IMG/VR virus record: IMGVR_UViG_3300029305_001221 | Coordinates: 1 to 64,000 of that record | Reading direction: 5' to 3' (one strand) | Length of the DNA: 64,000 nucleotides | From: a virus | Lineage: Duplodnaviria; Caudoviricetes | Shown: positions 6-16,067 of the stretch, piece after piece | Layout of the letters: the number at the start of each line of letters is the position of its first letter | Position numbering within the stretch: position 1 is the stretch's first letter | The notes under the pieces: model-generated | Told to the model about the DNA's origin: nothing | What the model saw: only the letters and a program-made list of their open reading frames with translations | Databases searched by the model: none | Made by a program: the position numbers and the translations under genes

Positions 6-1682
6 GTGGTATCGACTGTCGAGCTTAACGAAGACGATAGAGTACTCGTTGCTATTAAAAATCATACGGCTACTGTTACTGGCAATATGACGAATATCGC
101 ATTGGGCAAGATGACTGAAGGTAACCTTAGATCTGAGATTAGTCAGACTGCGGAGAAAATCACTCTATCCGCCGAGAAGCTAGAGGGTGACATTGCAACC
201 GCTAAGGCAGAATTTACTGTCGAGGCTGGTAAGATTCGAGCTGATATGACAGCTCAGGGCGATGAGTTACAAAGACTTATCGGTGAGAATAGCGACGAGA
301 TCACTGATCTAGAAAAACGTATGACGTCCGCTGAGACAGAAATTGTCGCGATTCCTGGTAGAGTTGAGTCGACCGTTAGCGCTAAGTATGCGACTATAGA
401 GACGACTGATGACCTCAATTCTAGACTCGAATCTGCGGAATCCAGCATTGTTCAGTTGCCCAACCTGATTGAAACGACGGTTAGCGGAAAATATGCCGAT
501 AAAGAGGAGTTTACTACTTTCAAACAGGAAGTAAACGGCTTCAGCTTTATGGGTAATGGCGGTACTGTTAAAATCAGCGGCGGTGATATCAACCTTACCG
601 GTGCTATTAAGTTTTCTGATCTTACTGATAGCTCTTCTGTTCAGAGTCAGATAAACAATGCTAACAATAATGCGTCCGATGCTCTTGATGCGGCAGAAAG
701 TGCTGAATCTATGGCTAGTGATGCTCAGGATACTGTCGATGGGGTATTAACAACTGTTAATGGTATCACTATTACAGAGGGTTCTAAAACCTACCTCGAT
801 GGTGAAATGATATACTCAAACTCCATCTATGCGGATGCTATGCATTTAGGCGGAAGTCTTGCGGTATATAGGACTTTATACGGCACCACCATCGGCGGAT
901 ATTTAGGTTACGACGATGGTTTCAACTCTGACTCGGGTATAGGCATCCGTTATAGTAACGGAAATACCCAGATGGTATGTACCAATTTAGCAGCACGTTT
1001 GTCTTATGGCGCGAGTTCTCCGACTGCGCAGTTCGTAGCATCGAGTTCACATGCAGCTATTGATTCTGATAGCGATATAGATATCACCGCTGGTAGACAT
1101 GCTAGAGTTACTGGTGATTACAACGTATATCTAAACGCAAAAGGTGACGGTATTATATTTCAGCTTGCTAGCAATAGTGTTGGCTGTTTTACAGCAAATA
1201 GCTTCCGTTCTTATCCATCTGGTACTAACGCCACCATCGGTGTTTCTGGACAAAGATGGGCTGCGGTATATGCTAGCAAAGTATATAACTCTAGCGGAGA
1301 GCTGACCACGTCTGACCGCAATGCTAAAAACAGTATTGAGAACCTGCCGGATAAATATATTGACCTGTTCGATAGACTTAGACCTGTGCGTTTTAAGTTC
1401 AATGACGGAACGTCTGACCGATATCACGTCGGTTATATTGCTCAGGAAGTTGAAGAAGCGATGGCTGCTTCCGGTATCGATAGTAAGGAATTCGGAGGTT
1501 TTGCTCGCGAGGTTGACGAAGATGGCAATATATTATGCATGTTGAGATACGACGAATTCGATGGCGTTCGAGATCTCAAAATTAAACGGCTTGAGAACGA
1601 TTTTCTCGCGGTCAAATCTGAAAATGAGGAACTGAAGGCTCGTATCGAGAAGCTCGAAAAGCTGTTAACTCAAAATACATAA
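6..1682 (+). CDS. Tail fibre/tail spike C-terminal part with intramolecular chaperone (Peptidase_S74-like) domain; 5' end lies outside the window
   Basis: Coiled-coil N-part and beta-rich body. C-terminal TSDRNAKNSI...LRPVRFKF...HVGYIAQEVEE...LRYDEF followed by a coiled coil is typical of the S74 chaperone. The frame is open to the window edge. Confidence 0.85.
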   Translation: MVSTVELNEDDRVLVAIKNHTATVTGNMTNIALGKMTEGNLRSEISQTAEKITLSAEKLEGDIATAKAEFTVEAGKIRADMTAQGDELQRLIGENSDEITDLEKRMTSAETEIVAIPGRVESTVSAKYATIETTDDLNSRLESAESSIVQLPNLIETTVSGKYADKEEFTTFKQEVNGFSFMGNGGTVKISGGDINLTGAIKFSDLTDSSSVQSQINNANNNASDALDAAESAESMASDAQDTVDGVLTTVNGITITEGSKTYLDGEMIYSNSIYADAMHLGGSLAVYRTLYGTTIGGYLGYDDGFNSDSGIGIRYSNGNTQMVCTNLAARLSYGASSPTAQFVASSSHAAIDSDSDIDITAGRHARVTGDYNVYLNAKGDGIIFQLASNSVGCFTANSFRSYPSGTNATIGVSGQRWAAVYASKVYNSSGELTTSDRNAKNSIENLPDKYIDLFDRLRPVRFKFNDGTSDRYHVGYIAQEVEEAMAASGIDSKEFGGFAREVDEDGNILCMLRYDEFDGVRDLKIKRLENDFLAVKSENEELKARIEKLEKLLTQNT

Positions 1683-1699
1683 AATAAGGAGCGAGAGCT

Positions 1700-1999
1700 A
1701 TGGAAGAAAAGCTGGATATAGAGCACCGCGTGACAGTAGTGGAGGATCGTAGTAAATCCAACTCTAAGCGTCTTGATGACGTCGAAAGAAGACAGGATAA
1801 CCTCGATGAATTGGTCAGTACCGTAAAGGTCCTGGCAGTTCGAGAAGAAAATGTTGAATCCGATGTCAAAGAAATTAAAACCGATGTTAAGTCATTGAAA
1901 GAGATTCCTGCCAATCGATGGAACAGCATAGTCGAGAAGATTATCTGTGTTATTGTTGGTGCAATCGTTGCTTATGCAATGACTAAAATTGGCTTGTAA
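1700..1999 (+). CDS. Holin-like / XhlA-like small membrane protein
   Basis: Coiled-coil N-terminus, one C-terminal TM (IICVIVGAIVAYAM), position after the tail fibre, AAGGAG RBS. Confidence 0.6.
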   Translation: MEEKLDIEHRVTVVEDRSKSNSKRLDDVERRQDNLDELVSTVKVLAVREENVESDVKEIKTDVKSLKEIPANRWNSIVEKIICVIVGAIVAYAMTKIGL

Positions 2000-2022
2000 A
2001 ATAAAAATGGAGGTAATTACTT

Positions 2023-2298
2023 ATGGCTAATATTGAAGGACATGGTAGACCTACCAAACGTACCGCCGCCGCTGTTGGTGATTTGTACGTCGATCTCGAC
2101 ACCGGTCATATGTACGAATGTATTTCTGCCGATGCGTATTCCCAGGTGCATGGCGACCTTATGGGTGGCTATATTTGGAAGTATGCACTTGACGTCGATC
2201 ATGTTATTGCGGCAGATGATTCTACGGGTTCGGGCTCTGGTTCTGGATCCGACTCTAATCTGATCATCATTGATTGGTCTGACGAAGAGACTGCTTAA
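2023..2298 (+). CDS. Hypothetical protein
   Basis: GGAGG RBS; followed by a hairpin and U-tract at about 2306-2345. Confidence 0.65.
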   Translation: MANIEGHGRPTKRTAAAVGDLYVDLDTGHMYECISADAYSQVHGDLMGGYIWKYALDVDHVIAADDSTGSGSGSGSDSNLIIIDWSDEETA

Positions 2299-2454
2299 AT
2301 AATAGAAGAGGGGCGGCCGCGTTGGCTTCCCCTTCTTTTATTTTTCGATTGAATGAAATTGCGGCTAGTAAATATAACACCACGACCAGAGTATATAACA
2401 TGTTCGTTTAAAATACAACTCCTATTATGGACAAATAGCAAAGGAGTGAGTGAT

Positions 2455-2670
2455 ATGGCAAAAGTATATGACTTTCCATTAAAGAAACTTCCAGAGGAGA
2501 TTGACGTACGCTTGGACGAAATCGCAAAGGATTATGTCATGGCATTATATGATGTAATGGATGATCTATGTGATGAGCTAGAGCCTGCGAATGATGAATA
2601 TGAGGAGGTTTTTATGGTAGTACTGATGACTCTTGTAGAAAAACTTGACAAAGCTATTGAAGGATTTTGA
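2455..2670 (+). CDS. Small acidic hypothetical protein (cassette)
   Basis: AAGGAG RBS before ATG 2455; upstream motif and downstream terminator. Confidence 0.7.
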   Translation: MAKVYDFPLKKLPEEIDVRLDEIAKDYVMALYDVMDDLCDELEPANDEYEEVFMVVLMTLVEKLDKAIEGF

Positions 2671-2773
2671 GGAGGGGTTGTAATAACCTCTTCTTTTATT
2701 TTTTTGTCCGAACATAGTGAAGACAATTGACCGCGATAATTACTTTTCCCTTTATAGAAAGGAGACGAGAAGT

Positions 2774-2989
2774 ATGATTACTAAGAAGGTTTATGTCACT
2801 GTTCTTAATCACGAAAAGTATGAGAAGGTTGTACAGGAACTAAATAAGCTTGGCGTTACTATACTTGAAAAAAGTTATAATGTAGCTTGTGATCGGTACG
2901 ATATTCTTACTGAGATGAATGTTGAACAGTGTTGCACGATGCTTACTTTTGTAAACAAACTCGGCGGCATTCTATGGAAAGGGGAGTAA
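2774..2989 (+). CDS. Small hypothetical protein (cassette)
   Basis: AAAGGAG RBS before ATG 2774; own motif and terminator. Confidence 0.65.
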   Translation: MITKKVYVTVLNHEKYEKVVQELNKLGVTILEKSYNVACDRYDILTEMNVEQCCTMLTFVNKLGGILWKGE

Positions 2990-3034
2990 CATCCCCTATT
3001 CTTTTTGTTTCGCTCCATTTACATACTCTATTAT

Positions 3035-3162
3035 GGAGAGGAAGAGTTCTGCCTACTTAGCGGTAGGAGTAAGAATTGTGGTCGTGGCCAGAAATGGTCG
3101 AGTTCTGCCTACTTAGCAGTAGGAGTAAGAATTGTGGCGGCTTTCTCTTTTGTTTTTTTTTT
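3035..3162 (+). ncRNA. Putative structured small RNA with two near-identical 38-nt hairpin arms
   Basis: Begins at the motif at 3010. Repeats at 3044-3081 and 3100-3137 differ at one base. Central GGCCA-GAAA-TGGTC hairpin. 5' AGAGGAAG pairs with 3' CTTTCTCT, followed by a U-tract. No RBS or credible ORF. Confidence 0.65.
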
Positions 3163-3252
3163 GCTAGAACAATGGAGAGCTTGTATATTATATCAATATA
3201 GTTCGCATATAAAGCATGTTATATTATGAGAAAACTAAAGGAGGACGACGAT

Positions 3253-3417
3253 ATGTCAAAAGAAGACATTATCAAAGCTATCGAGTTGATCGACGAACAA
3301 TTACAGAAAAATCACGAGGTTGGTGCTGTATATATTCCGACGACACGATTGCTTATGGATGTTCGAAAAATGTATGTTGACATGTTAAAGTACAAATACG
3401 GGGTTTTCTATACGTAA
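3253..3417 (+). CDS. Small hypothetical protein (cassette)
   Basis: AAGGAGG RBS; motif at 3203; terminator at 3425-3458. Confidence 0.65.
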   Translation: MSKEDIIKAIELIDEQLQKNHEVGAVYIPTTRLLMDVRKMYVDMLKYKYGVFYT

Positions 3418-3458
3418 GTGTAAAAGGCTCTGTCAAAACGACAGGGTCTCTTTTTTTT

Positions 3459-3530
3459 GTTAGAGTAACGACTTACAACATCCATAGCCAATCCTATATC
3501 CCCAATGATGTTATAACTCGTGACCCTAAC
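3459..3530. other. Candidate attP of the serine integrase
   Basis: 24-bp imperfect inverted arms (20/24 match) at 3459-3482 and 3507-3530 around a 24-bp centre, just past the integrase 3' end and its terminator. Confidence 0.5.
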
Positions 3531-3560
3531 AAAGAAACCCTTGATATACAAGGGCTCTCT
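3531..3560 (-). terminator. Intrinsic terminator of the integrase gene
   Basis: CCCTTG-tatat-CAAGGG hairpin followed by TTTCTTTG on the minus strand. Confidence 0.6.
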
Positions 3561-3567
3561 AAGTGTG

Positions 3568-5421
3568 CTATAGTTTTAAATCAATATGCAATTCAAGATC
3601 GTCCTCATCCTCTTTACGCCAGTTCAGACGTTTTGTTTTAGAATAGGTAATTTTTGCTATTATCGATTTCAAACTTTCATTCTTCTGTGGTATACTCATG
3701 TTGTCGTATTCATTTAAACATTCTTCAAGATTCGGTACTGCTTTCTTATATTTGATAAGGGTGCTATTATCGTCATCGTTTTCGAATTCTTCGAGCTGCG
3801 TCATCAGTTCGTTGAGTTCGGATTCGATATCGCCTTTTATCTCCACATAATCTTCATGCGGTATTGCATGCTCTTCCTGATTCTGTTTTCGTATTAGATT
3901 TTTACGTTCTTTCTTCAAACTTTCTATTTTATTTTTAATCTTGACGATACTCTTTTGTTTATTAGTTTGTTCCTTTACTATTTCTTTTTCATAGTTATTA
4001 ATGTAATATTTAAAATTTGCTAGTTGAACTTTTAAATCATCCAATATAGCTCGTTCAATTCTTTGCAAACAAGCTCCTACCATATTGCAATGCTGATTAC
4101 TACACACAAACATGTCGTTCAACGGCGGTGGATCTACATACGTCATTATCTGTTCGTCGAATTCGTCACTGTCGATTTCCAGAAAGAATTTTAGCTCATA
4201 CCATTTCTCAGTAAATAAGTCGCTATAATGGTTATGGTCTGGACGAGTATCAAACCATGTTACCACGTTATGTTTCTTGATATTTAGGAACTCCGCTATT
4301 TGTTGATAACTAACGGCCTTCTTTTCCTTATGCTCTCGCAGAAAAGCGTTCAATTTTGCTTTATTTATCTCATATTTACGGCGTTTCTTACGTTCTTTGT
4401 CGCGTCTAGTATTTTTAACCCTAACCAGGGAGTGATTGCATTTCTTACAGAATACTAGACCTGCTATAGGGTTTTGTAACTCTCGATTAAGTCCTACTCT
4501 AGACGACGGATTCCCTTTTATTTTTTCTTGGGCTAGATCCCACGTCTCTTTCGATACAATCGGATCATGTCGTCCTCTAACGAGCATATAATCATCGGTA
4601 CTAACCCGTATCTTTGTTATTTCTTCGTTTATCCATCTTTTTACGGTCGGTCGTTTACCCCATGCAGTCGAACCATAATATATTTCATTCTTCATAACAT
4701 GTCGCACCATCGCATCGTCCCAGAGTTTGTTTTTGCGAGGCTTCATGTGATGCTTATTTAAATAACTCGCTACCTCGATCGCTGTTAAATCCTCATCTAC
4801 AAACAATTTGTATATGGTTTCGACAATGGGAGCCTCGACTTTATTTTTAACAAGCATAAAACCTCGATCTAAAGCTTTTCTCTGATAACCAAACGGAGGC
4901 GTAGAGCCAACATATTTGCCTTCTCGAATTGATAAGTTCTTACCACGATCCATTATTTCTTTATGATATTCGAGATACTGGTTACCCTGCACTAATTGAG
5001 CTTCAAATAGCTGTCTATCAAACTTATTACTTAAATCATATGTCTTAGTTACCGTTACGACGAGCGTGTCAGTATATCTAAGAATGTCGACAACTCGTCC
5101 GCAGTCGGTCATTCCACCACGAGAAATACGCTGCGGTTCAACTACTAATAACCCGCGTATCGGTTCCTTTTCTAAACGCTGAAATACTTTCTTAATTTCA
5201 ATACGCTCGTCTAAGGTCTCTCCAGAAACTACCTCTCGATAGATATTTGCTTCGGGTATCTTTTGCCCGAATGTCTGCTCGGCGTAATCCTGTAATATTT
5301 TCTCATGTCGTGCTAAAACCTCTTCAACAGTTTCATTTCTCTCAGCCCTTGATTTTCTTAAATAAATTATTATTTGATCTACGCATATCTGCGAAAGTTC
5401 GTGTTGCGTGATTATATGCAT
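3568..5421 (-). CDS. Large serine recombinase (integrase) with an XRE-like HTH inserted in the zinc-ribbon domain
   Basis: YLRKSR catalytic motif; EVVSG, RISRG, recombinase domain (PPFGY), zinc ribbon CKKC...CSNQHC and coiled coil. Start at 5421 follows an AAGGGG RBS. Confidence 0.92.
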   Translation of the reverse strand: MHIITQHELSQICVDQIIIYLRKSRAERNETVEEVLARHEKILQDYAEQTFGQKIPEANIYREVVSGETLDERIEIKKVFQRLEKEPIRGLLVVEPQRISRGGMTDCGRVVDILRYTDTLVVTVTKTYDLSNKFDRQLFEAQLVQGNQYLEYHKEIMDRGKNLSIREGKYVGSTPPFGYQRKALDRGFMLVKNKVEAPIVETIYKLFVDEDLTAIEVASYLNKHHMKPRKNKLWDDAMVRHVMKNEIYYGSTAWGKRPTVKRWINEEITKIRVSTDDYMLVRGRHDPIVSKETWDLAQEKIKGNPSSRVGLNRELQNPIAGLVFCKKCNHSLVRVKNTRRDKERKKRRKYEINKAKLNAFLREHKEKKAVSYQQIAEFLNIKKHNVVTWFDTRPDHNHYSDLFTEKWYELKFFLEIDSDEFDEQIMTYVDPPPLNDMFVCSNQHCNMVGACLQRIERAILDDLKVQLANFKYYINNYEKEIVKEQTNKQKSIVKIKNKIESLKKERKNLIRKQNQEEHAIPHEDYVEIKGDIESELNELMTQLEEFENDDDNSTLIKYKKAVPNLEECLNEYDNMSIPQKNESLKSIIAKITYSKTKRLNWRKEDEDDLELHIDLKL

Positions 5422-5460
5422 GGAAAAATATACCCCTTTTCTGTTTGTCAATTTTACATT

Positions 5461-5477
5461 ATGCTTCAAATAGTGAA
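5461..5477. promoter_or_regulatory. Putative operator ATGCTTCAAATAGTGAA (identical copy at 6513-6529)
   Basis: 17-bp exact repeat with a TTCA-N5-TGAA dyad, upstream of the integrase and of gene 6553. Confidence 0.5.
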
Positions 5478-5527: not shown

Positions 5528-5680
5528 ATGAAAATTACTTATTCACGAAGAACCCCTACAAAGGAAGTTCTTCAACATGTTTATGACGTAATGAACAAAA
5601 ATATTAAGAATCCCAAATGTTTCTATACGTCAGAGCAGGTAAAAGAGCTAAAGAAAGATAAGAATAATATCTGGCTATAA
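5528..5680 (+). CDS. 50-aa basic protein, divergent from the integrase (not in the ORF track)
   Basis: GAGGTG RBS; MKITYSRRTPTKEVLQHVYDVMNKNIKNPKCFYTSEQVKELKKDKNNIWL. Confidence 0.6.
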   Translation: MKITYSRRTPTKEVLQHVYDVMNKNIKNPKCFYTSEQVKELKKDKNNIWL

Positions 5681-6058
5681 ACGAGACTGTTCTTTAGCAT
5701 GTAAGTATAACTTCATAATACTCTCGTACAATTCTTGTTTCTCATCCATCGGAACATTGTCATTTTCAAAAATTATTTTAGCGCGTTCTAACAAATCAAC
5801 CGTTTCTATCTCATTCGATTCGAAACCCAATGTCTCAATAGAAACGCTAAAGAAATCGGCTAAAGCTTTGATCTGATGGATGTTGAAATTTCTTTTTCCG
5901 GTCTCCAGATTCGAGATTTGACCTCGAGATAAGGGTTTGCCGGAGATTTTATCGCCTAACACTTCCCCTAGTTCGTCTTGCGTAATCCCTCTTGATTTTC
6001 TCAACTGTTTGACACGCTCGCCTATTTCTCTAGTATTAATCGACTTTTGAATGCGCAT
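5675..6058 (-). CDS. XRE-family repressor (CI-like)
   Basis: N-terminal HTH IGERVKQLRKSRGITQDELG...ISNLETGKR; next to the integrase. Confidence 0.85.
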   Translation of the reverse strand: MRIQKSINTREIGERVKQLRKSRGITQDELGEVLGDKISGKPLSRGQISNLETGKRNFNIHQIKALADFFSVSIETLGFESNEIETVDLLERAKIIFENDNVPMDEKQELYESIMKLYLHAKEQSRL

Positions 6059-6447: not shown

Positions 6448-6552
6448 TCGATAGGATATCTGGTCATGCTGAACGGTTAAGGCAACATTGTTTGGCATTT
6501 TTTTTAAAGCGAATGCTTCAAATAGTGAATTTAGAAAGGGGTATGTTAACAA

Positions 6553-6957
6553 ATGGCTACGGTAATACGTCCAGAGATATCGGAGAAGAACAAATACTAC
6601 ATAAGTAAACATAGACATTACGAGCTGAAGCATTTCTGCCTTCAATATCCGGAATGGAGACGCTCATATACAGAAGCGGATGGATTTGGACGAATTGCTT
6701 CTGAATCCGATACGAGATATTCTGATAGGACTGCTAAACACGGAACATTAAGAGCTAAGTACATAGATAGAATAAGACTTATAGAAGAAGCTGCGAGATT
6801 GGCTGATAATGATCTCTCGTCATATATTTTAAAAGGAGTAACCGAGGGTTATTCGTATACATATTTAAAAACTACAATGGGTATGCCGTGCGGTAGAGAC
6901 ATGTATTATGATCGATACAGACGATTCTTCTGGCTGCTTAGTCAATCGCGAGATTAA
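6553..6957 (+). CDS. Putative phage transcriptional regulator (ArpU/RinA-like)
   Basis: Size and the C-terminal YSYTYL...CGRDMYYDRYRRFFWLL helix pattern recall phage activators; adjacent to the immunity region. Confidence 0.45.
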   Translation: MATVIRPEISEKNKYYISKHRHYELKHFCLQYPEWRRSYTEADGFGRIASESDTRYSDRTAKHGTLRAKYIDRIRLIEEAARLADNDLSSYILKGVTEGYSYTYLKTTMGMPCGRDMYYDRYRRFFWLLSQSRD

Positions 6958-6988
6958 CCGTCCCTATTATAGAAAGGGAGTGTTAGAT

Positions 6989-7198
6989 ATGAAATGGAAA
7001 AGCATATTGTCGCATGGATTAGTATTAGTTACCGGTTATGGAATCGGGAAGATCGTTGGAGGTTTGAAAGTCTGCAAATTTATGGCAGATGAATTCGAAA
7101 AGGAATTTCCTGGTTTTAAGAAAGGAGTAACTAAGGCTGCTAGCGACAAAGTTATCGATCGCATGTTTAATGAAACCGAGGAACGCGAAGGGGTGTAA
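6989..7198 (+). CDS. Small membrane protein (cassette)
   Basis: N-terminal hydrophobic GLVLVTGYGIG; own motif and terminator. Confidence 0.7.
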   Translation: MKWKSILSHGLVLVTGYGIGKIVGGLKVCKFMADEFEKEFPGFKKGVTKAASDKVIDRMFNETEEREGV

Positions 7199-7274
7199 CA
7201 ACCCCTTTTTGTTTTGTTCGCGTATTTTTCAGCGTCCTTTATGAAGTATAAATTATTTTAGGAGGTATAAAACT

Positions 7275-7559
7275 ATGACACCTATTTATATGTACGGATT
7301 GGGCGGATACGAGGATCATTTCAGGATTATCGTACACTGGCGCATCGATGAGGATATGGACAATTACGAGGACGTATTTGATTTGTGCAAAAGCAAAGCT
7401 TCATATATGAGATATAAACATCCATCTGTGAAGGAAGTTTATGCAATATATCAGAAACCCGGATTGGCGCATGACTATCAGCGCACGGTTAAGAAGAATG
7501 ACATAGAGCATTGTGTCGCCTTCCGAGACATGCTTAGAGCAAAGGGAATGGATTTCTAA
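7275..7559 (+). CDS. Hypothetical protein (cassette)
   Basis: GGAGG RBS; motif at 7218; terminator at about 7583-7612. Confidence 0.7.
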   Translation: MTPIYMYGLGGYEDHFRIIVHWRIDEDMDNYEDVFDLCKSKASYMRYKHPSVKEVYAIYQKPGLAHDYQRTVKKNDIEHCVAFRDMLRAKGMDF

Positions 7560-7696
7560 AAGCAAGTTATACTCGAAAAGAGAAGAGCTCTTAAAACGGG
7601 CTCTTTTCGTTTTTCGGCAGAACTAAGAGACGGCAGTCGCGTATAATACAGCCCCCTTTATGAAGTAAATACATATATTTTGAGAGGAGAATAACT

Positions 7697-7963
7697 ATGA
7701 AAAAGTTATGTGTACTTATGGGGTTGGCATTAGTGATTTGCGGATGGATTGGTCTGGCAATGCTTAACAATAATGAGGTTGTATCCGATGAGGATATCGC
7801 AATGAGTTATATCATCAACGAATACGGAGAGGATGACTACGAACTAGTCATGTACGAAGAGGAGGATGATGAATATATCAAGTTTGCGGTTTTCAAGGAC
7901 GGGAAACCTTTCAGAACTTGTAGCATTTTAAGAGATTATTATCTAGTTCACGCGGATAGCTGA
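7697..7963 (+). CDS. Small exported/membrane-anchored protein (cassette)
   Basis: N-terminal signal or TM segment, acidic body. Confidence 0.7.
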   Translation: MKKLCVLMGLALVICGWIGLAMLNNNEVVSDEDIAMSYIINEYGEDDYELVMYEEEDDEYIKFAVFKDGKPFRTCSILRDYYLVHADS

Positions 7964-8058
7964 GGCTATCCCTTTTTATTTCTGAACATTAGTGAGGGGA
8001 TCGGTCGCGTAAATTGCACGTTACTTTATAGAAATAATGAAAAAGGAGATGTACTATT

Positions 8059-8244
8059 ATGGCACCTTGTGAAATGGGATATAGAGACAATTTTCAGGAT
8101 AAGAAGATCAAACACAAGAATAAGACTCAATTCAACTTGGGTAGGATTCTTGAGACGATCGCAGACTACCTGTGGATGATCGCAATATTCCCAATCGCAT
8201 TCGTCGTCAGAGTATTCAGATGGACTTATCATTACGACGACTAA
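8059..8244 (+). CDS. Small membrane protein (cassette)
   Basis: C-terminal TM LWMIAIFPIAFVV. Confidence 0.65.
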   Translation: MAPCEMGYRDNFQDKKIKHKNKTQFNLGRILETIADYLWMIAIFPIAFVVRVFRWTYHYDD

Positions 8245-8348
8245 GAGGCTTCGGCCTCTTTTTTATTTCTAAAATATCTAAGAAAATCGTCGCATAAATT
8301 ACACGCTCCTTTATGGAAACAATTTACATTACAAAGGAGACTATACAT

Positions 8349-8552
8349 ATGAAGAAGTTTGAAAAGTATTTGAAGAAGTTTGTGCTGTATCTTTGCGAAA
8401 CATACAAGAATAAGCTTTGCGCTTTGGCATTGCTTATCTGCGGATGGATTCCGTTAAAGATTAGCGGCGATGGAACTGCTTTGATGATTATTGGCTTTTT
8501 CGCAATTGGATTGTTCTTTGCGAGAACGGATTGGTTCTTAAAGAAAAATTGA
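8349..8552 (+). CDS. Small two-TM protein (cassette)
   Basis: AAGGAG RBS, two hydrophobic segments. Confidence 0.65.
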   Translation: MKKFEKYLKKFVLYLCETYKNKLCALALLICGWIPLKISGDGTALMIIGFFAIGLFFARTDWFLKKN

Positions 8553-8659
8553 GGAGACTTCGGTCTCTTCTTTTATTTTTTAAATCTAGATTAGATCTCG
8601 CGTAAATTACACATCCCTTTATGGAGTAAACAAGCATATAATCGAAAGGGGAAATAATT

Positions 8660-8830
8660 ATGTTGAACTTTATTACTATTATCGCTGGAGTTATGATTGG
8701 AACGCTTTTGGCTGGCGTTGTGACATTCGTAGTAATGACATATACGCCGTTCTTTGGCTGGTACATGAAGAAAGTCGCGAAGATGAGTAAGGAGATCACT
8801 GAGGAACTCATGGAGGAGTATGATCTGTAA
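8660..8830 (+). CDS. 56-aa membrane protein (not in the ORF track)
   Basis: MLNFITIIAGVMIGTLLAGVVTFVVM...; motif at 8598, terminator at 8842-8870. Confidence 0.65.
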   Translation: MLNFITIIAGVMIGTLLAGVVTFVVMTYTPFFGWYMKKVAKMSKEITEELMEEYDL

Positions 8831-8876
8831 ACTCAGAACGAGAGTCTAAGAAATTCTTAGGCTCTTTTTCTTTTAT

Positions 8877-8918
8877 TTCTGAAGATATCTGAGGAAATTC
8901 TGAAGTTGTCTGAGGAAA
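8877..8918 (+). repeat. 21-bp tandem repeat TTCTGAAG(A/T)T(A/G)TCTGAGGAAA x2; related copy at 49510-49530
   Basis: Direct inspection; each occurrence directly follows a terminator U-tract. Confidence 0.7.
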
Positions 8919-9052
8919 TCTAGGATAGAACTTTTAAACCTAGCTTAATAATATTCCGCACACAGACGACCATTTCAGGTGTTAAATTGATATCGTTCCG
9001 GAAAAATTCCCCGGGTTAGAAATTTCGAAAAACAAAATGAAAGGAGATAAAT

Positions 9053-9271
9053 ATGGGGTATGTAATAGTCTTCATTCTCGCATTATTACTCGGCACATTC
9101 GTAGGTATATTACTGACGCATTTAAAATCGTCTGGAATTATAAGAGTAACTGGAGCCGATGAAGACGGTATGTATTTGGGCCTAGTTGTTAGCAAGAGTC
9201 CTGCTGATTTCATGCGTCACAAGTACGTAACGTTTAAAGTCGACAACTCTTATTTCAATTCGCACAAATAA
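9053..9271 (+). CDS. Small membrane protein
   Basis: N-terminal TM; AAAGGAG RBS. Confidence 0.7.
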   Translation: MGYVIVFILALLLGTFVGILLTHLKSSGIIRVTGADEDGMYLGLVVSKSPADFMRHKYVTFKVDNSYFNSHK

Positions 9272-9323
9272 CAAGTCCTATTACGGTAATATCAAATTAT
9301 ATTTTTGAAAGGAGAAATCTAAA

Positions 9324-9716
9324 ATGATTAACGAACCTAAAAGACTGCTACGGGAGGAATTCCGAAAAGAGGTCGAGGAGCTTAGCAAGATTTCCGTTGG
9401 AACTGAAGAATACAAGGTTGCAGTTGACGGGGTCGCTAAGATTGCGGATCGAATTATCGAGATCGAAAAACTCGAAGTCGATGTTCGTGACAAGGAGGTA
9501 AATCGAGAAGTCGATGCTGACTTGAAGCGCGAGCAGATGGCTGAGGAGAAGAAAGATCGAATTATTCGAAATGCGATCACGGTCCTGACTACTGCGGCTG
9601 GATTCGGATTGACCATCTGGGGTTACTTGACTGAACTCAAGTACGACGAGAAGGGAGCTATGCCTAGAACGCTGTTAGGTAAGGAATTTGCGAAAGGATT
9701 GTTCCGCAGAAAGTAA
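9324..9716 (+). CDS. Coiled-coil protein with a C-terminal TM (cassette)
   Basis: Motif at 9260; RBS; terminator at about 9736-9767. Confidence 0.7.
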   Translation: MINEPKRLLREEFRKEVEELSKISVGTEEYKVAVDGVAKIADRIIEIEKLEVDVRDKEVNREVDADLKREQMAEEKKDRIIRNAITVLTTAAGFGLTIWGYLTELKYDEKGAMPRTLLGKEFAKGLFRRK

Positions 9717-9857
9717 GCTGATTTATCATTCTACCAAGGGGCTATGGAAACATAGTCTCTTGTTTTTGTCCGAACCTGATGAAGGTAACAGACGCGGAAA
9801 TTGCACGTCCTATTATGGAATCAATTATTTAATTAAATGGTAAAGGAGGACGATTAA

Positions 9858-9935
9858 TTGGTAATCTTAGGATTTGCACTAGTAATCGTTGGTTGCATCA
9901 TTATTATGAAAGGTTCAAGCAACGGGGGGTCGTAA
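9858..9935 (+). CDS. 25-aa TM micropeptide
   Basis: AAAGGAGG RBS, TTG start, MVILGFALVIVGCIIIMKGSSNGGS; own motif (9792) and terminator. Confidence 0.55.
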   Translation: MVILGFALVIVGCIIIMKGSSNGGS

Positions 9936-10058
9936 TGACCCCTTTTTGTTTTCTATAAGAATTCAGTAATAATGTCCTAATCTTTTCTTTTCGGCGCGAA
10001 ATTTACAGCCACCTTTATGAAAAGGAAGAGGTAAATTGAACGGAGAAAGGATTATATT

Positions 10059-10157
10059 ATGACTACTAGTATGATGTTAATGTTTATGATTGCTATTAGC
10101 ATAGGATTATCTATCGATGAGAAATTGCATGAAAACGACGGAGAGTCCGAGCAGTAA
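10059..10157 (+). CDS. 32-aa micropeptide with a hydrophobic N-half
   Basis: AAAGGA RBS, MTTSMMLMFMIAISIGLSIDEKLHENDGESEQ; own motif (9994) and terminator. Confidence 0.5.
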   Translation: MTTSMMLMFMIAISIGLSIDEKLHENDGESEQ

Positions 10158-10197
10158 TGTTCGACTCTTCATTTTTATTTTCTCCGGGAGGTGACTT

Positions 10198-10557
10198 ATG
10201 AGGTATCATTACGAAAAACCTGCCATTTTTTCATCGATGTACGGAACTACATATAAATGTGAGCATCCCGTGTATGACAAATGCACACTTTTCGAAATAG
10301 CTGGGAGAGGGCTCGCTATAATTCAACAGAGATATGACCCGAATAGCAAGCGGACCTGGTGGAGTGAGATAGATCCTTGGCTTACCGATGAGATATATCT
10401 GCATTCTAAATTTAAACAATTGTTCGATGAACGAGCTGACGAGCCTATGGATGGTTTATACCCAACTGCTAGCATACGACAGGTCATGTGGGCGCTTAAA
10501 ATGAAACCTATTCCAAAAGAGCGATGGGAAACATGTTTCGATAGACGTCTTATCTAG
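10198..10557 (+). CDS. Conserved phage hypothetical protein
   Basis: GGGAGGTG RBS, 119 aa. Confidence 0.7.
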   Translation: MRYHYEKPAIFSSMYGTTYKCEHPVYDKCTLFEIAGRGLAIIQQRYDPNSKRTWWSEIDPWLTDEIYLHSKFKQLFDERADEPMDGLYPTASIRQVMWALKMKPIPKERWETCFDRRLI

Positions 10558-10623
10558 TCGCGTAATTTGCATCCTCCTTTATGAAACCGAAACGGTTAAT
10601 ACATTATGAAAAGAGGAACGATT

Positions 10624-10857
10624 ATGGGTAAAACTATGAGCGAACGTTATAACGAGAGTATGGACAATCTGATGAAGATGTTCGGCAAGATGTTTCTGGA
10701 ATCCGATATGGATGAAGAAGCGATCAAGGCGTATGTCATTCTGAAGGATATGGTCACACTGTCGAAAGACATGGTTCGAGCTCAGGAGGAGACCATCGAG
10801 AATCAGAAGCATATTATTAAGATGCTGGAAGGGATCACAGAAAAAATTGGAGTATAA
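10624..10857 (+). CDS. Small coiled-coil protein (cassette)
   Basis: Motif at 10558; terminator at 10858-10880. Confidence 0.65.
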   Translation: MGKTMSERYNESMDNLMKMFGKMFLESDMDEEAIKAYVILKDMVTLSKDMVRAQEETIENQKHIIKMLEGITEKIGV

Positions 10858-10959
10858 GAGGGGCTTCGGCCTCTTTTATTTTTCTGACATTGTGCAGCAA
10901 TAGCAGTCGCAAATTTTACAACTTACTTTATGAAAGAATATTTTAAGGAGGTTTAAATT

Positions 10960-11085
10960 ATGAAAACTTTTCTGAGCTTTGTGACAGGCGTGTTCGTCGG
11001 AGCAGTTGGCTATGCAGCGGCTACGATCACAATGCCGAGCCTGCGCGATGCGGCCGAAGTTCTCAGTTGGAAACTTACTAGATAA
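10960..11085 (+). CDS. 41-aa membrane peptide
   Basis: AAGGAGG RBS, MKTFLSFVTGVFVGAVGYAAA...; own motif and terminator. Confidence 0.6.
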   Translation: MKTFLSFVTGVFVGAVGYAAATITMPSLRDAAEVLSWKLTR

Positions 11086-11190
11086 TATCTTGGCGAAACG
11101 GAGTCTAAGAAATTCTTAGGCTCTTGTTTCTTGAACAAATGGATGGACGCGAAATTATCACAGGCTATTATGAAAAGGAGGTAAATAATT

Positions 11191-11370
11191 ATGATTTTAT
11201 TCACATTATTGCTGCTCACATCGATTATTTTGGCAACGGTCACGGTGATCACGCTTGTAAGCGTTGGCGCTGGATTCATTGTCATCTTTGGCGATGTGAT
11301 TGTATTCTGTGCGATCATTGTCTTTATTATGAAAGCCTTTATCAAGAAAAGAAAACAGAAGAAGAACTGA
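11191..11370 (+). CDS. 59-aa two-TM protein with a basic tail
   Basis: AAGGAGG RBS, MILFTLLLL...KKRKQKKN. Confidence 0.65.
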   Translation: MILFTLLLLTSIILATVTVITLVSVGAGFIVIFGDVIVFCAIIVFIMKAFIKKRKQKKN

Positions 11371-11436
11371 GCCCTTCGGGGCTCTTTCTCTTTCATTTTT
11401 CTCTTCGAATTCGCGAAAAAATCAAGTTCTATTATG

Positions 11437-11511
11437 GAAACGGTGAGCTCGATTGGTAGAGCATTACACTTAACCGTGTAAAGGCTGCAGGTTCGAATCC
11501 TGCACTGTTTC
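11437..11511 (+). ncRNA. tRNA-like RNA with a non-canonical anticodon loop and no encoded CCA
   Basis: Acceptor GAAACGGT/ACTGTTTC, D arm GCTC-GATTGGTA-GAGC, T arm GCAGG-TTCGAAT-CCTGC, anticodon arm TTACA-CTTAACCG-TGTAA. Confidence 0.65.
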
Positions 11512-11548
11512 TTTTTAGCTTTTACTAACCCGAAAGGTGAGGAGAAAA

Positions 11549-12322
11549 ATGGAGAAATTAGCACATCAAGCAATATTATTTTTGAAGCGCAATTCGTCAA
11601 CGGTCTTAACTTGCGTAGGAGCAGCTGGGGTAATTGCAACTTCCGTACTGGCAGTAAAAGCTACACCAAAGGCACGTATGCTTATCGATGAGGCTGAAGA
11701 TGTAAAGGGCGAGCCTCTTACAAAATTAGAGACAGTTAAAGTGGCTGGACCTGCGTATATCCCGACTGTGATTACGGGTACAGCTACTATCGCTTGTATT
11801 TTTGGAGCGAATATACTGAACAAACGAAGTCAAGCAGCCTTAACTAGCGCATATGCATTACTCGACAATTCTTATAAAGAGTATAAAAAGAAAGTCGAAG
11901 AATTATATGGCGAAGAGGCTAGCGCTAAGGTTCGAGAAGAAATAGCTAAGGATGCGTTTGAAGAACATCCGATTAAAGCGTCTAACGATAAGCAGCTATT
12001 CTATGACATGTATTCGGACAGATATTTCGAGTCTACAATGCAGAAAGTTCTGGAAGCACAGTATAGTTTGAATCGATCTTTCACAACTAAAGACTACGCA
12101 TATTTGAATGAGTTCTATGATTATCTAGAGATAGATACGATTCCTTCAGGCTATAAACTAGGATGGTCTACAGCTCAATGTTTAGAGATGTACTGGCAGT
12201 CTTGGATCGATTTCAACAACGAATTAATCACGATCGATTCTGACGACCCTGAGTACGAAGGACTTGAATGTTGTGTAATTAGCATAATGACAGATCCGAT
12301 AGTTGGATTTGAAGATTATTAA
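11549..12322 (+). CDS. DUF6353-like protein, paralog 1
   Basis: RNSSTVLTCVGAAGVIATSVLAVKATPKA N-terminus and LNEFYDYL...GW C-terminus are shared with 12593 and 15031. Confidence 0.7.
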   Translation: MEKLAHQAILFLKRNSSTVLTCVGAAGVIATSVLAVKATPKARMLIDEAEDVKGEPLTKLETVKVAGPAYIPTVITGTATIACIFGANILNKRSQAALTSAYALLDNSYKEYKKKVEELYGEEASAKVREEIAKDAFEEHPIKASNDKQLFYDMYSDRYFESTMQKVLEAQYSLNRSFTTKDYAYLNEFYDYLEIDTIPSGYKLGWSTAQCLEMYWQSWIDFNNELITIDSDDPEYEGLECCVISIMTDPIVGFEDY

Positions 12323-12365
12323 ATCGCGATAAAAGCAAACCGTTTAATGAAAGGAGGAATGTTTA

Positions 12366-12542
12366 GTGAAAACCTTTAAGAAACCCGATGCTGCGTTGAT
12401 CTGGACCGTAATTGCAGGTGTGACGTCTGTTCTTGGATTTATTGCAAATCATAAGAAAGAGGCTAGCGCTAGCAGTGCACAGGAAGATCGAATCGTAGAG
12501 AAGGCTGCTGAAAAAGTTTTACAGAAACTATCCGAAAACTAA
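12366..12542 (+). CDS. 58-aa membrane protein (not in the ORF track)
   Basis: AAAGGAGG RBS, GTG start, TM ALIWTVIAGVTSVLGFIA; own motif and terminator. Confidence 0.6.
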   Translation: MKTFKKPDAALIWTVIAGVTSVLGFIANHKKEASASSAQEDRIVEKAAEKVLQKLSEN

Positions 12543-12592
12543 AAAAGGGTCCTACGGGACCTTTTAATTTTTGAAAGGAGTATAAGTAAACA

Positions 12593-13369
12593 ATGGGCAA
12601 ATTCAATGTAATGGCGTTCGCTAAAGGTTTGCGTTCGTCCGTATCAAAACACAGTCCTGAAATTCTCACAGGTCTTGGTATCGCCGGCATGGTCGGTACG
12701 GTAGTAATGGCAGTCAGAGCAACGCCGAGAGCTATGGAGCTTATCGATGAAAAGTGTCTAGAAGATGGGGTGGATAAACTTACTCCCGTAGAAACTGTTA
12801 AAGCAGCTTGGAGACCGTATGTTCCTGCTACGATTACTGGCGCAATGTCTGTCGCATGTCTAATCGGCGCGAGTTCGGTTAATGCGAAGCGTAATGCCGC
12901 TCTAGCAGCAGCTTATACTATTTCCGATACCGCTCTAAGAGAGTATCGCGATAAGGTCATTGAGACTGTTGGCGAGAAGAAAGAGAAAACTATTCGCGAT
13001 GAAGTCGCAAAGGATCGTCTTGAAAAAAGTCAGTCTAATCCTAGCACGGTTATCGTGACTGGTGCCGGTTCTACCGTATGCTATGACGTTATCACAAGAC
13101 AGCGTTTTACGTCGAATATCGATAAGATTCGTAAGATCGAGAACGAACTTAACAAACGTATGCTGTCTGGGGAGGACTATATTTCTCTGAATGAGTTCTA
13201 TTATGAGCTTGGTCTAGATAGTGTAGCCATCGGTGACGAATTAGGCTGGAATGTTAGCTCAGGTCTTATCGATCTCGAATTTAGCGCTCAGTTAGATGCC
13301 GACGGTACTCCTTGTATCGTAATCGACTACAGAGTAGCGCCTGTTAGGGGTTATTCGACCTACGCATAA
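12593..13369 (+). CDS. DUF6353-like protein, paralog 2
   Basis: KHSPEILTGLGIAGMVGTVVMAVRATP...LNEFYYELGL...GW. Confidence 0.7.
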   Translation: MGKFNVMAFAKGLRSSVSKHSPEILTGLGIAGMVGTVVMAVRATPRAMELIDEKCLEDGVDKLTPVETVKAAWRPYVPATITGAMSVACLIGASSVNAKRNAALAAAYTISDTALREYRDKVIETVGEKKEKTIRDEVAKDRLEKSQSNPSTVIVTGAGSTVCYDVITRQRFTSNIDKIRKIENELNKRMLSGEDYISLNEFYYELGLDSVAIGDELGWNVSSGLIDLEFSAQLDADGTPCIVIDYRVAPVRGYSTYA

Positions 13370-13441
13370 TTCGCGAAAATTGCAAGTTATTTAATGGAAG
13401 AATAATAAATAAATTTTTATAACCGAAAGGAGAAAACAATT

Positions 13442-13723
13442 ATGTACGAAAACGAAATCAAGAACGAACTCATGGAGAACGAAGAGGTTCTGGTTATGAC
13501 CGAATCTACTGAAGTCGAAGAGAAGGAGTCTGGTATTGGCACTTTGGCCGCTATGGCTATCGGAGCCGGCGTTACCGCAGCAGGTATTGCTGTAGTGAAG
13601 CTGGGTAAGAAGGGCATTAAGTGGCTGAAGGCTAAGAAGGACGCTTCCAAGGCTAAGGTCGATAAGGATGCCGATGCCGAAAACGCTCCCGCTGAGAACG
13701 TTGAGGAAGCTGAGGAAAATTGA
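13442..13723 (+). CDS. Small single-TM protein with acidic ends (cassette)
   Basis: Motif at 13371; terminator at 13757-13800. Confidence 0.7.
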   Translation: MYENEIKNELMENEEVLVMTESTEVEEKESGIGTLAAMAIGAGVTAAGIAVVKLGKKGIKWLKAKKDASKAKVDKDADAENAPAENVEEAEEN

Positions 13724-13817
13724 CAACCTGGAAGGTAAGAATTAAAAGTTCTTACGAGAGGGGAGTACCTTAATAAAACGAGGTACTTTCCTCTTTATTT
13801 TTTTGAAAGGAGAGCGC

Positions 13818-14027
13818 ATGAACAATCCTGGATATCGAGCGTGGACTTATGACGGTCCGGTTTTGGAATATGGCAAAGTCATCTGCAATCGTTGGCGAGC
13901 CTCGACATATGCAGTCTCTGAGAAAAAAGCGAGAAGTAATCTAACATTTCAATATAAAAAGGAATTTAATAAGGCGCCAAACCGGAATATCACGCTTCCG
14001 GGTAAGGTTGTTCTGTTTGATCGATAG
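13818..14027 (+). CDS. Conserved phage hypothetical protein
   Basis: TTTGAAAGGAG RBS. Confidence 0.6.
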   Translation: MNNPGYRAWTYDGPVLEYGKVICNRWRASTYAVSEKKARSNLTFQYKKEFNKAPNRNITLPGKVVLFDR

Positions 14028-14038
14028 GAGGAATAAAT

Positions 14039-14656
14039 ATGGACGAATATATGCCCAATTCCCATAAGTTCAAGGAGGAGCAGAAAGTTGCTTCTACTGA
14101 AAAGAAAAAAGTAGAAAAAGTAGTTACTGGTGTTGCAAAGGTTAAAAAGAAGAGCGAGGTCAGTAAGCTTAAGGATATCTTCATTTCTGAAGACGCTTCG
14201 AATGTGAAGAGTTATATCGTCATGGATGTCCTGGTTCCGGCTATTAAGAAGGCTGTCGCAGATATCGTTACGAACGGCATTGACATGATTCTGTACGGAG
14301 AGACCGGACATTCGAAACGAGGCTCTAGTTCTTCCAAGATATCGTATCGAAGCTACTATGATCGCAAAGACGATGATAGACGCTATGATCGTGATCGCGG
14401 TCGAGTTAAGCAAGGCTATGATTATGATGATGTCATTATCGAAACTCGTGGCGAGGCAGAAGCTGTAATTTCTCGAATGGATGAAATTGTCGACATGTAT
14501 GGTCGAGTAAGCGTTGCAGATTTGTATGATCTTGTTGGTATCACTGGTAATTATACCGATAACAACTATGGATGGACAAATCTTGCTAGCGCCGAACCTA
14601 TCCGTGTACGAGATGGTTACGTCATCAAGCTGCCTAAGGCTATGCCGATTAAATAA
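14039..14656 (+). CDS. Conserved phage protein; C-terminal domain shared with 33201-34172
   Basis: YDDVIIETRGEAE...VSVADLYDLVG...YGW...GYVIKLPKA. Confidence 0.75.
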   Translation: MDEYMPNSHKFKEEQKVASTEKKKVEKVVTGVAKVKKKSEVSKLKDIFISEDASNVKSYIVMDVLVPAIKKAVADIVTNGIDMILYGETGHSKRGSSSSKISYRSYYDRKDDDRRYDRDRGRVKQGYDYDDVIIETRGEAEAVISRMDEIVDMYGRVSVADLYDLVGITGNYTDNNYGWTNLASAEPIRVRDGYVIKLPKAMPIK

Positions 14657-16053: not shown

Positions 16054-16067
16054 AAGGGGGAATACCA

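What the first reader, a model, noticed from the sequence alone, without database searches (positions are those of the whole stretch)
3035..3162. Small RNA built from two near-identical 38-nt hairpin arms: candidate protein decoy or antitoxin mimic
Seen: its own motif (3010), then GAGTTCTGCCTACTTAGC(G/A)GTAGGAGTAAGAATTGTGG at 3044-3081 and 3100-3137. The only difference lies in the hairpin loop. Each arm folds as AGTTCT/AGAATT, a G x AGTA internal loop, and CCTAC-TTAGCR-GTAGG. Between the arms is a GNRA-capped hairpin (GGCCA GAAA TGGTC), and a terminal stem plus U-tract closes the RNA. There is no credible ORF. Established: phages use RNA repeats as decoys, e.g. pseudo-ToxI against type III toxin-antitoxin systems (repeats of about 36 nt) and repeat-like Racr RNAs against Cas complexes. 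Inference: a bivalent RNA sponge for a host or defence protein.
Basis: partly seen in the sequence, partly recalled or inferred. Interest (0 to 1): 0.75.

Follow-up and report, generated by a model that had tools for sequence, protein, structure and literature searches.

The report
Modular hairpin small RNA in gut phages
This is a real, previously undescribed gene for a small folded RNA of about 117 bases in gut phages, built from one or two copies of a conserved hairpin and swapped like a cassette between phages, which most likely binds a protein, though its partner is still unknown.

Summary
Two 38-nt copies lie at 3044-3081 and 3100-3137, with one difference, inside a unit that has its own phage promoter motif (3011-3036) and a closing stem plus U-run (3142-3162). 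No Rfam family matches.

I found 17 further copies in other assemblies, giving 5 distinct two-arm RNAs and one single-arm form. Across them 98.7% of proposed pairs hold. The inner stem of the hairpin covaries: 4 of 6 pairs are doubly compensated, and 0 of 500 shuffles reach the observed score. The outer stem, the G/AG(U/C)A internal loop, the UAGC loop and the GUGG tail never change. A new helix (3081-3085 with 3137-3141) turns the fold into two nested three-way junctions.

The unit is mobile. In relatives it lies in the early region beside an odd tRNA-like gene. The window's closest sister phages carry a different end-clamped RNA in exactly this slot.

Tests for a ToxI mimic, a CRISPR-repeat mimic, an ANTAR target and a tRNA were not met. 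The single-arm form shows that two arms are not essential.

Best reading: a trans-acting RNA whose hairpin is a sequence-specific protein-binding module (decoy or RNP). This is inferred, not shown.

The scan's earlier notes touch this RNA only on this same window, not on other DNA.

The parts
3011..3036 (+). Phage-type promoter motif (CGC-N17-TTATGG). The transcript probably starts at about G3035.
   Evidence: The motif has 14 copies on the + strand and 2 on the - strand, against a shuffle mean of 2.4. The same motif precedes every homologue and the neighbouring tRNA-like genes.
3035..3043 (+). P1, 5' strand (GGAGAGGAA), pairs with 3142-3150.
   Evidence: 98% of cells are paired; one pair shows a change on both sides and one a one-sided change.
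3044..3081 (+). Repeat copy 1. It consists of G3044, arm 1 hairpin 3045-3077 (outer stem 3045-3050/3072-3077, G3051 opposite AGUA 3068-3071, inner stem 3052-3057/3062-3067, UAGC loop 3058-3061) and the GUGG tail 3078-3081.
   Evidence: model R2, 64.7 bits.
3081..3085 (+). P1b, 5' strand (GUCGU), pairs with 3137-3141 (GCGGC).
   Evidence: 100% paired; two pairs change on one side and keep pairing.
3086..3099 (+). P3 hairpin GGCCA-GAAA-UGGUC. The stem is invariant; the loop is GGCA in all relatives.
3100..3137 (+). Repeat copy 2. It consists of G3100, arm 2 hairpin 3101-3133 and the GUGG tail 3134-3137, whose last G opens the 3' strand of P1b.
   Evidence: model R2, 64.9 bits.
3137..3150 (+). 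3' strands of P1b (3137-3141) and P1 (3142-3150).
3148..3162 (+). U-rich run directly after P1. This is the probable terminator: the end clamp followed by U's.
   Evidence: The same clamp-plus-U design is seen in every neighbouring RNA cassette.

Best explanation
SHOWN. The region 3011-3162 is a self-contained gene for a non-coding RNA of about 117 nt in a temperate gut phage of the Oengusvirus-like group. It has the phage's own non-sigma70 promoter motif. Its first 9 bases pair with its last 9 bases (P1), and a U-run follows directly. Inside P1 the RNA forms two nested three-way junctions: P1 / arm 1 / P1b, then P1b / P3 / arm 2. The functional module is the 33-nt bulged hairpin, which relatives carry in one or two copies. 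Its inner stem is free to covary. Its outer stem, the single G opposite AG(U/C)A, the UAGC loop and the 3' GUGG are invariant. The gene behaves as an exchangeable cassette.

INFERRED. A pattern of invariant unpaired bases on a helix that is free to covary is what a sequence-specific protein-binding site looks like. I propose that the RNA is made early by the phage's YonO-like RNA polymerase and acts in trans. Each arm would capture one copy, or one subunit, of a host or phage RNA-binding protein, as a decoy/sponge or as the RNA part of a small RNP. The second arm would raise valency or avidity without being essential. It is accessory, variable and early, and it sits next to tRNA-like genes with altered anticodon loops. 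Given that position, a counter-defence role is the most likely use.
For: Gene status:
- Promoter motif statistics support a real transcription unit.
- The phage carries a YonO/crAss-like RNA polymerase at 57303-60050 (phrog_4291, E=0; bioRxiv 10.1101/842583 for the FP_oengus homologue).
- The end clamp plus U-run is shared by all neighbouring RNA cassettes.
- The next promoter copy, at about 3203, serves the next ORF.

Structure:
- The proposed fold lies within 1.2-3.7 kcal/mol of the minimum free energy in all five two-arm variants, and RNAalifold recovers it.
- In the 7 distinct arms 98.8% of cells pair, 4 of the 6 inner-stem pairs are doubly compensated, and 0 of 500 shuffles reach the score. 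Versions with the partner slid by 1-3 columns pair only 33-55%.
- For the whole RNA 98.7% of cells pair and 7 pairs are doubly compensated.
- 22 of the 25 variable columns are in stems; 28 of the 31 unpaired columns are invariant.
- About nine G.U pairs, and a much weaker minus-strand fold (-24.1 versus -36.6 kcal/mol), point to a + strand RNA.

Selection and mobility:
- The RNA is 80-86% identical between phages whose flanking proteins are 45-61% identical, and it sits at a different genomic place in them.
- Sister phages of the window (upstream 71-aa gene 85-92% identical) carry another clamped RNA in the same slot.
- One-arm and two-arm forms both persist in several studies.
Against: - There is no expression data: no RNA run holds the locus.
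- No partner protein has been identified.
- No similar hairpin exists in the host genome G001 or elsewhere in the phage that the RNA could be imitating.
- The dinucleotide-shuffle z-score of the fold is unremarkable (+0.46). The support is comparative, not thermodynamic.
- All known copies come from one phage lineage, and there are only 6 distinct whole sequences, so the covariation statistics rest on few independent events.
- An RNA-RNA target or a small-molecule ligand is not excluded.
Confidence: 0.4

Rival explanations
1. The RNA works in the tRNA pathway together with the neighbouring tRNA-like genes. For example, the arms (5-bp stem plus a 6-nt loop, UUAGCR) could imitate an anticodon arm and so occupy an anticodon nuclease, a modification enzyme or a dimeric synthetase.
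For: In all 17 L004-type copies the RNA lies directly upstream of a tRNA-like gene with an abnormal anticodon loop (ARAGORN 'gaaa'; Rfam tRNA 47.5 bits). The window has a similar odd tRNA at 11437-11512 under the same promoter. All of these share the end-clamp design. Two-hairpin anticodon-arm mimicry for a dimeric enzyme has a precedent in the E. coli thrS operator (my knowledge, not tested here).
Against: Neither ARAGORN nor the Rfam tRNA model sees the element. In the window it is 8 kb away from the odd tRNA. The loop has a pyrimidine where position 37 should be a purine. The invariant internal loop and GUGG tail have no tRNA counterpart.
Confidence: 0.15
2. The RNA is a CRISPR-repeat mimic. 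The single-arm form would be a solitary repeat unit (Racr). The two-arm form would be a repeat / 18-nt spacer / repeat mini-array (crRNA-like regulatory RNA) that loads Cas proteins.
For: The architecture resembles both forms. The repeat starts with GAGUUC and carries a hairpin, as some class 1 repeats do (my recollection, a lead only). Racr and viral crlRNA precedents exist (PMC10651486; bioRxiv 10.1101/2024.10.29.618823; abstracts seen).
Against: A scan of 185,579 species genomes with the stems left free found no array of such repeats, only one prophage copy. Host genome G001 has no similar sequence elsewhere and no cas1, with a working control. The two arms of one RNA differ in their inner stems by compensating changes, which is unlike repeats in an array. 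The 'spacer' is itself a conserved hairpin paired into the fold. A 5'-3' clamp is not a feature of crRNA.
Confidence: 0.06
3. The RNA is a type III antitoxin mimic (pseudo-ToxI-like) that neutralises a ToxN/CptN/TenpN-type endoribonuclease.
For: It is a repeated RNA unit of about 38 nt in a phage, and the copy number varies (1 or 2). This recalls the repeat expansion seen in PhiTE (PMC3475682).
Against: ToxI units are contiguous 36-nt repeats that fold as pseudoknots. Here the period is 56 nt, with a structured spacer, and the unit is a covarying hairpin. There is no ToxN family hit in the phage or in G001, although the tool's control was silent, so this is weak evidence. No related repeat occurs next to any gene in G001.
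Confidence: 0.03
4. The element is cis-acting, either as a leader or attenuator for the downstream gene, or as a DNA-level site (operator, recombination or cassette-junction site).
For: It lies between a terminator and the next gene, and cassette exchange happens at exactly this place.
Against: The downstream neighbour differs: a 54-aa ORF with its own promoter in the window, and a tRNA-like gene with its own promoter in relatives. The many G.U pairs work on one strand only. Compensatory changes preserve an RNA fold rather than a fixed DNA sequence. It does not meet the ANTAR dual-hairpin leader rules.
Confidence: 0.05

Closest known systems
pseudo-ToxI of phage PhiTE / ToxI antitoxin RNA (type III toxin-antitoxin; PMC3475682)
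   Same: Both are phage-borne non-coding RNAs made of repeated units of about 36-38 nt. In both the copy number varies between phages, and both are proposed to act by binding a protein.
   Different: ToxI units are contiguous and fold as pseudoknots processed by ToxN. Here the units are bulged hairpins 56 nt apart, embedded in a clamped multi-junction fold. No cognate host repeat or toxin gene was found.
Racr / viral crRNA-like RNAs (PMC10651486; bioRxiv 10.1101/2024.10.29.618823)
   Same: These are solitary or paired repeat-like hairpin RNAs in phage genomes, with their own promoter, proposed as decoys for an RNA-binding immune complex.
   Different: No CRISPR repeat resembling the arm was found in any of 185,579 species genomes or in the host genome. 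The arms within one RNA differ by compensating changes. The 18-nt 'spacer' is a conserved structural hairpin.
EutX/Rli55-type sponge sRNAs with ANTAR dual-hairpin sites (ANTAR rules from PMC3369931; the sponge role is from my knowledge)
   Same: A trans-acting sRNA presents two similar small hairpins with conserved loop bases to a dimeric RNA-binding protein.
   Different: ANTAR sites need A1 and G4 in both hexaloops and a 5-12 nt linker. Here the loop is UUAGCR, the arms are 56 nt apart, and a one-arm form exists. The only ANTAR-like protein signal in the phage is at noise level.
Phage tRNA and tRNA-like genes of the same cassette array
   Same: They share the same promoter motif, the same design in which a 5'-3' end stem followed by U's makes the terminator, and the same early, accessory location. 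They are often direct neighbours.
   Different: The element has no D, anticodon or T arm. The tRNA detectors do not see it.

Membership tests
Any Rfam 15 family | Covariance-model match | tested here: not met
   cmscan of 2600-3600 on both strands, with E up to 10, gave no hit on 3035-3162. The relatives L129, L138 and L139 gave only the neighbouring tRNA.
Type III antitoxin (ToxI / pseudo-ToxI) | Contiguous head-to-tail repeats of about 34-45 nt | tested here: not met
   The 38-nt copies are 56 nt apart with a structured 18-nt spacer. A one-copy form exists. ToxI features are taken from PMC3475682.
Type III antitoxin (ToxI / pseudo-ToxI) | The unit folds as a pseudoknot | tested here: not met
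   The unit is a 12-bp bulged hairpin with compensatory changes.
Type III antitoxin (ToxI / pseudo-ToxI) | Similarity to a host repeat array placed before a ToxN-type toxin gene | tested here: inconclusive
   There is no other arm-like sequence in host genome G001. PF13958 was not found in G000 or G001, but the control genomes were silent too. The CptN and TenpN families were not searched.
Racr / CRISPR mini-array mimic | Repeat closely similar to a CRISPR repeat of the host or of related bacteria | tested here: not met
   A pattern with free stems, scanned over 185,579 species genomes and 241 million metagenome records, gave one prophage copy and no array. There is no similar sequence and no cas1 in G001.
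Racr / CRISPR mini-array mimic | Binding or processing by Cas proteins | not testable with these tools
   This needs biochemistry.
ANTAR target RNA | Two hairpins with hexaloops carrying A at position 1 and G at position 4 | tested here: not met
   The loops are UUAGCG and UUAGCA: U at position 1, G at position 4. The rule is from PMC3369931.
ANTAR target RNA | Linker of about 5-12 nt between the two hairpins | tested here: not met
   The inner hairpins are about 50 nt apart, and a single-arm form exists.
tRNA / tRNA-like | Cloverleaf with D, anticodon and T arms | tested here: not met
   ARAGORN finds four tRNAs in the window but not this element. There is no Rfam tRNA hit.
Independent phage transcription unit of this genome's cassette array | Phage promoter motif immediately upstream, and a stem plus U-run at the end | tested here: met
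   Motif at 3011-3036; P1 plus U-run at 3142-3162; the same layout in all homologues.

The most novel reading that the evidence does not exclude
Oengusvirus-like gut phages may carry an exchangeable arsenal of small, end-clamped RNAs transcribed by their own single-subunit RNA polymerase: this hairpin-module RNA, at least three other unrelated folds, and tRNA-likes with altered anticodon loops. On this reading these RNAs are RNA-based counter-defence genes, and the conserved hairpin is a decoy for a host RNA-binding immune protein that has not yet been described. One or two arms would set the dose.
Probability: 0.2. Interest if true: 0.85.

Novelty: new variant of a known kind. Interest (0 to 1): 0.6.

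Why it matters
Few phage-encoded structured RNAs other than tRNAs have a known role. The known RNA decoys (pseudo-ToxI, Racr) were recognised because they copy a host sequence. This RNA copies nothing that can be found, yet it evolves like a functional RNA-protein interface: the helix covaries while the unpaired bases stay frozen. It comes in natural one-arm and two-arm forms. It also occupies a slot where related phages place other unrelated clamped RNAs.

That makes it a ready-made experimental system for three things:
- finding a new RNA-binding partner;
- testing whether phages trade RNA genes as they trade anti-defence protein genes;
- studying promoters and terminators of a YonO-like phage RNA polymerase.

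A cultured strain that probably carries a related prophage exists (Clostridiaceae bacterium strain 9, QXXE01000065.1).

Tried and rejected
- Rfam: no hit.
- BLASTN of 2400-3800 against 50,697 phage records: no match.
- Four viral contigs pattern scans: nothing found, or only chance or coding hits. A fifth pattern scan found one single-arm copy, L145.
- Integrase-based search for relatives in viral contigs: nothing.
- Whole-RNA model R1: 0 of 150 other genomes of G001's family; 0 of 80 related IMG/VR loci within 10 kb either side of a marker gene; none in FP_oengus or MT835485.
- Arm model R2: weak hits in L041, L040, L046 and L098 turned out to be coding sequence. Nothing in the sister-phage contigs L120-L128.
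- Genome and metagenome pattern hits L003 and L005-L014 were chance matches without a stem.
- Sequencing runs: no RNA holder is listed. Four animal-faeces DNA runs hold identical low-depth fragments and add no variation.
- ANTAR lead: window 27904-28560 gave PF03861 at E=0.0067, below the cut-off. Ten of 20 homologues gave equally weak hits, alongside other noise families. None of the listed best hits of this family (7,960 proteins at E <= 0.001) carries ANTAR in the precomputed Pfam. The AlphaFold model has mean pLDDT 53 with only two C-terminal helices. No fold search was run on it. The lead was rejected.
- Coding reading of ORF 3005-3229: rejected.
- Resemblance of the window's GUAGGAGU...GAAUUG to the 5' end of its own tRNA-Leu(UAG): rejected as chance, because relatives have other inner stems.
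- Resemblance of P3 to the anticodon arm of the odd tRNA: not conserved and not pursued.
- Complex prediction was not used, because there is no candidate partner.

Full report
WHAT IS THERE

The window is bases 1-64000 of an 82.5-kb IMG/VR virus record. Around the finding it reads as a temperate phage:
- tail fibre at 3-1682;
- holin-like gene at 1700-1999;
- small ORFs, then a terminator at 2980-2997;
- the element;
- a 54-aa ORF at 3253-3417 with its own terminator;
- a large serine integrase at 3568-5469 on the minus strand;
- a cI-like repressor at 5675-6058.

The closest named phage is Faecalibacterium phage FP_oengus, whose DNA polymerase is 61% identical.

THE OBSERVATION

They differ at one base and are unique in the window. 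The arm, the middle hairpin, the end stem and the U-run are all present. Nothing in Rfam 15 matches, even at E up to 10.

THE PROMOTER

CG[CT]-N17-T[TA]AT[GA]G occurs 14 times on the + strand and twice on the - strand, against 2.4 in shuffles. Each copy lies just before a small gene or an RNA. It does not fit sigma70 spacing. The phage encodes a YonO/crAss-type single-chain RNA polymerase at 57303-60050 (phrog_4291, E=0). The FP_oengus homologue is discussed in bioRxiv 10.1101/842583. That this enzyme reads the motif is an inference. Earlier notes of this scan on the same window say the same.

HOMOLOGUES

Exact and near-exact searches of phage and viral collections found nothing.

A pattern that left the inner stem free found one true copy in 185,579 species genomes. 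It is L004, on a 24-kb all-phage contig of Clostridiaceae bacterium strain 9.

In that lineage the small membrane-protein gene upstream has no stop codon before the RNA, so gene callers translate through it. A protein search with that read-through ORF therefore recovered further copies. Fetching their contigs gave 16 more loci, and a relaxed viral scan gave one more, L145.

In total there are 5 distinct two-arm RNAs (window, L004, L139 group, L129 group, L131 group) and one single-arm RNA (L134-L138 and L145). Together they contain 7 distinct arms.

STRUCTURE

The two linkers that follow the arms pair with each other: 3081-3085 with 3137-3141. This turns the simple cloverleaf into two nested three-way junctions. 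RNAalifold recovers this fold. It lies within 1.2-3.7 kcal/mol of the minimum free energy in every two-arm variant.

Pair counts:
- Arms: 98.8% of cells pair. Four of the six inner-stem pairs change on both sides. None of 500 shuffles reaches the observed pairing or covariation. Slid controls pair only 33-55%.
- Whole RNA: 98.7% of cells pair, and 7 pairs change on both sides.
- Of 25 variable columns, 22 are in stems. Of the 31 unpaired columns, 28 are invariant. The exceptions are two bases of the P3 loop and the U/C in AG(U/C)A.

The outer stem AGUUCU/AGAAUU, including its G.U pair, never changes in any arm. The many G.U pairs and the weak minus-strand fold show that the + strand RNA is the selected object.

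The window's single G/A difference converts a U.G pair into a U-A pair next to a UAGC loop.

One caveat: all copies belong to one phage lineage and the number of independent changes is small. The shuffle controls therefore overstate significance somewhat.

MOBILITY

L004-type phages are collinear with window 6500-21800, and their proteins are 30-61% identical to the window's. Yet their RNA, 80-86% identical to the window's, sits in the early region directly before a tRNA-like gene with an abnormal anticodon loop. The window's copy sits between the lysis genes and the integrase.

The reverse also holds. Contigs whose tail-fibre, holin and 71-aa genes match the window at 85-92% have, after the same terminator and promoter, a different RNA of about 150 nt. 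Its ends also clamp before a U-run (L125 2215-2360, z = -4.1, no Rfam hit).

Other clamped RNAs lie beside the element in L129 and L138, and the tRNA-likes use the same design.

The element is therefore one member of a set of interchangeable RNA cassettes.

WHAT IT DOES

This is inferred, not shown. A helix that is free to covary, carrying frozen unpaired bases and a frozen outer stem, is the signature of a specific recognition surface, most simply for a protein. The RNA is accessory, probably early, carried in one or two copies, and kept next to tRNA-likes with altered anticodon loops. This fits a trans-acting decoy or small RNP used against the host. I put this reading at about 0.4, and the bare claim 'functional structured RNA gene' at about 0.9.

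THE NAMED ANALOGIES FAIL WHERE THEY COULD BE TESTED
- ToxI-type: the units are not contiguous and are not pseudoknots. No toxin gene or cognate repeat is present in the host genome or the phage.
- CRISPR-repeat mimic: there is no array of such repeats anywhere in the genome collection, and no cas1 in the host genome. The arms within one RNA differ.
- ANTAR target: the loop rule and the linker rule are both unmet. The one ANTAR-like protein signal is noise.
- tRNA: not detected.
- A cis-regulatory role is unlikely, because the downstream neighbours differ and have their own promoters.

BIVALENCY AND ORIGIN OF THE SECOND ARM

The single-arm RNA consists of P1, one arm and the 3' linker. It is identical in six contigs, including an 84-kb phage contig. 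Its arm equals arm 2 of the L139 form. It is therefore most simply a deletion between the direct repeats of a two-arm parent, or the ancestral state. Either way, two arms are not essential.

In L004-type RNAs, arm 1 (AGUA) and arm 2 (AGCA) are old and distinct. In the window the arms differ by one base, which points to a recent homogenisation or re-duplication in that lineage.

EXPRESSION

No RNA data set holds the locus. Four animal-faeces DNA runs hold identical fragments. Transcription is therefore still unproven.

VERDICT

This is a real, new family of phage small RNA with good comparative support. Its mechanism is unknown but experimentally accessible. It is one item in an apparently larger system of exchangeable RNA cassettes.

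Noticed in passing
L125:2215-2360 (also in L120, L124, L127): The window's closest sister phages carry, in exactly the slot of this element (same upstream terminator and promoter), an unrelated RNA of about 150 nt. Its 5' and 3' ends clamp before a U-run. Fold z-score is -4.1 and there is no Rfam match.
   Followed up: partly
window 11437-11512; L004 3779-3853: tRNA-like genes under the phage promoter, with abnormal anticodon loops (ARAGORN calls the anticodons 'aa' and 'gaaa'; the loops are 6 nt if the closing pair forms). The acceptor stem is followed directly by U's and there is no CCA. The L004-type gene always follows the hairpin RNA.
   Followed up: partly
L129:3235-3340; L138:2201-2290: Two further end-clamped small RNA cassettes lie next to the element in relatives. 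The L138 one has a T-arm-like hairpin. Neither matches Rfam.
   Followed up: partly
window 3452-3482 / 3507-3537: A 31-nt imperfect inverted repeat (84% complementary, 24 nt apart) lies just past the 3' end of the large serine integrase gene. It is a candidate attP core.
   Followed up: no
window 57303-60050 and 14 or more motif copies (e.g. 2405, 2732, 3011, 6947, 8006, 8291, 8599, 9793, 11412, 13372, 25982, 26345, 55390, 55827): A YonO/crAss-like single-chain RNA polymerase gene, plus a strand-specific non-sigma70 promoter motif that heads small one-gene cassettes.
   Followed up: partly
L004 3382-3789 and proteins P0143-P0156, P0203: The small membrane-protein gene upstream of the RNA lacks an in-frame stop. 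Public gene calls therefore run on through one to three RNA genes and yield chimeric 'proteins'. This was useful for finding RNA homologues, but it is an annotation artefact.
   Followed up: yes
window 27904-28560: A 218-aa protein belonging to a very large uncharacterised family (7,960 hits at E <= 0.001). It has no Pfam assignment and the AlphaFold model has low confidence.
   Followed up: partly
L139, L141 and L143 at 1394-2836 (minus strand): A 480-aa DUF772 (transposase-like) gene is inserted just upstream of the membrane-protein and RNA unit in one sub-lineage.
   Followed up: no
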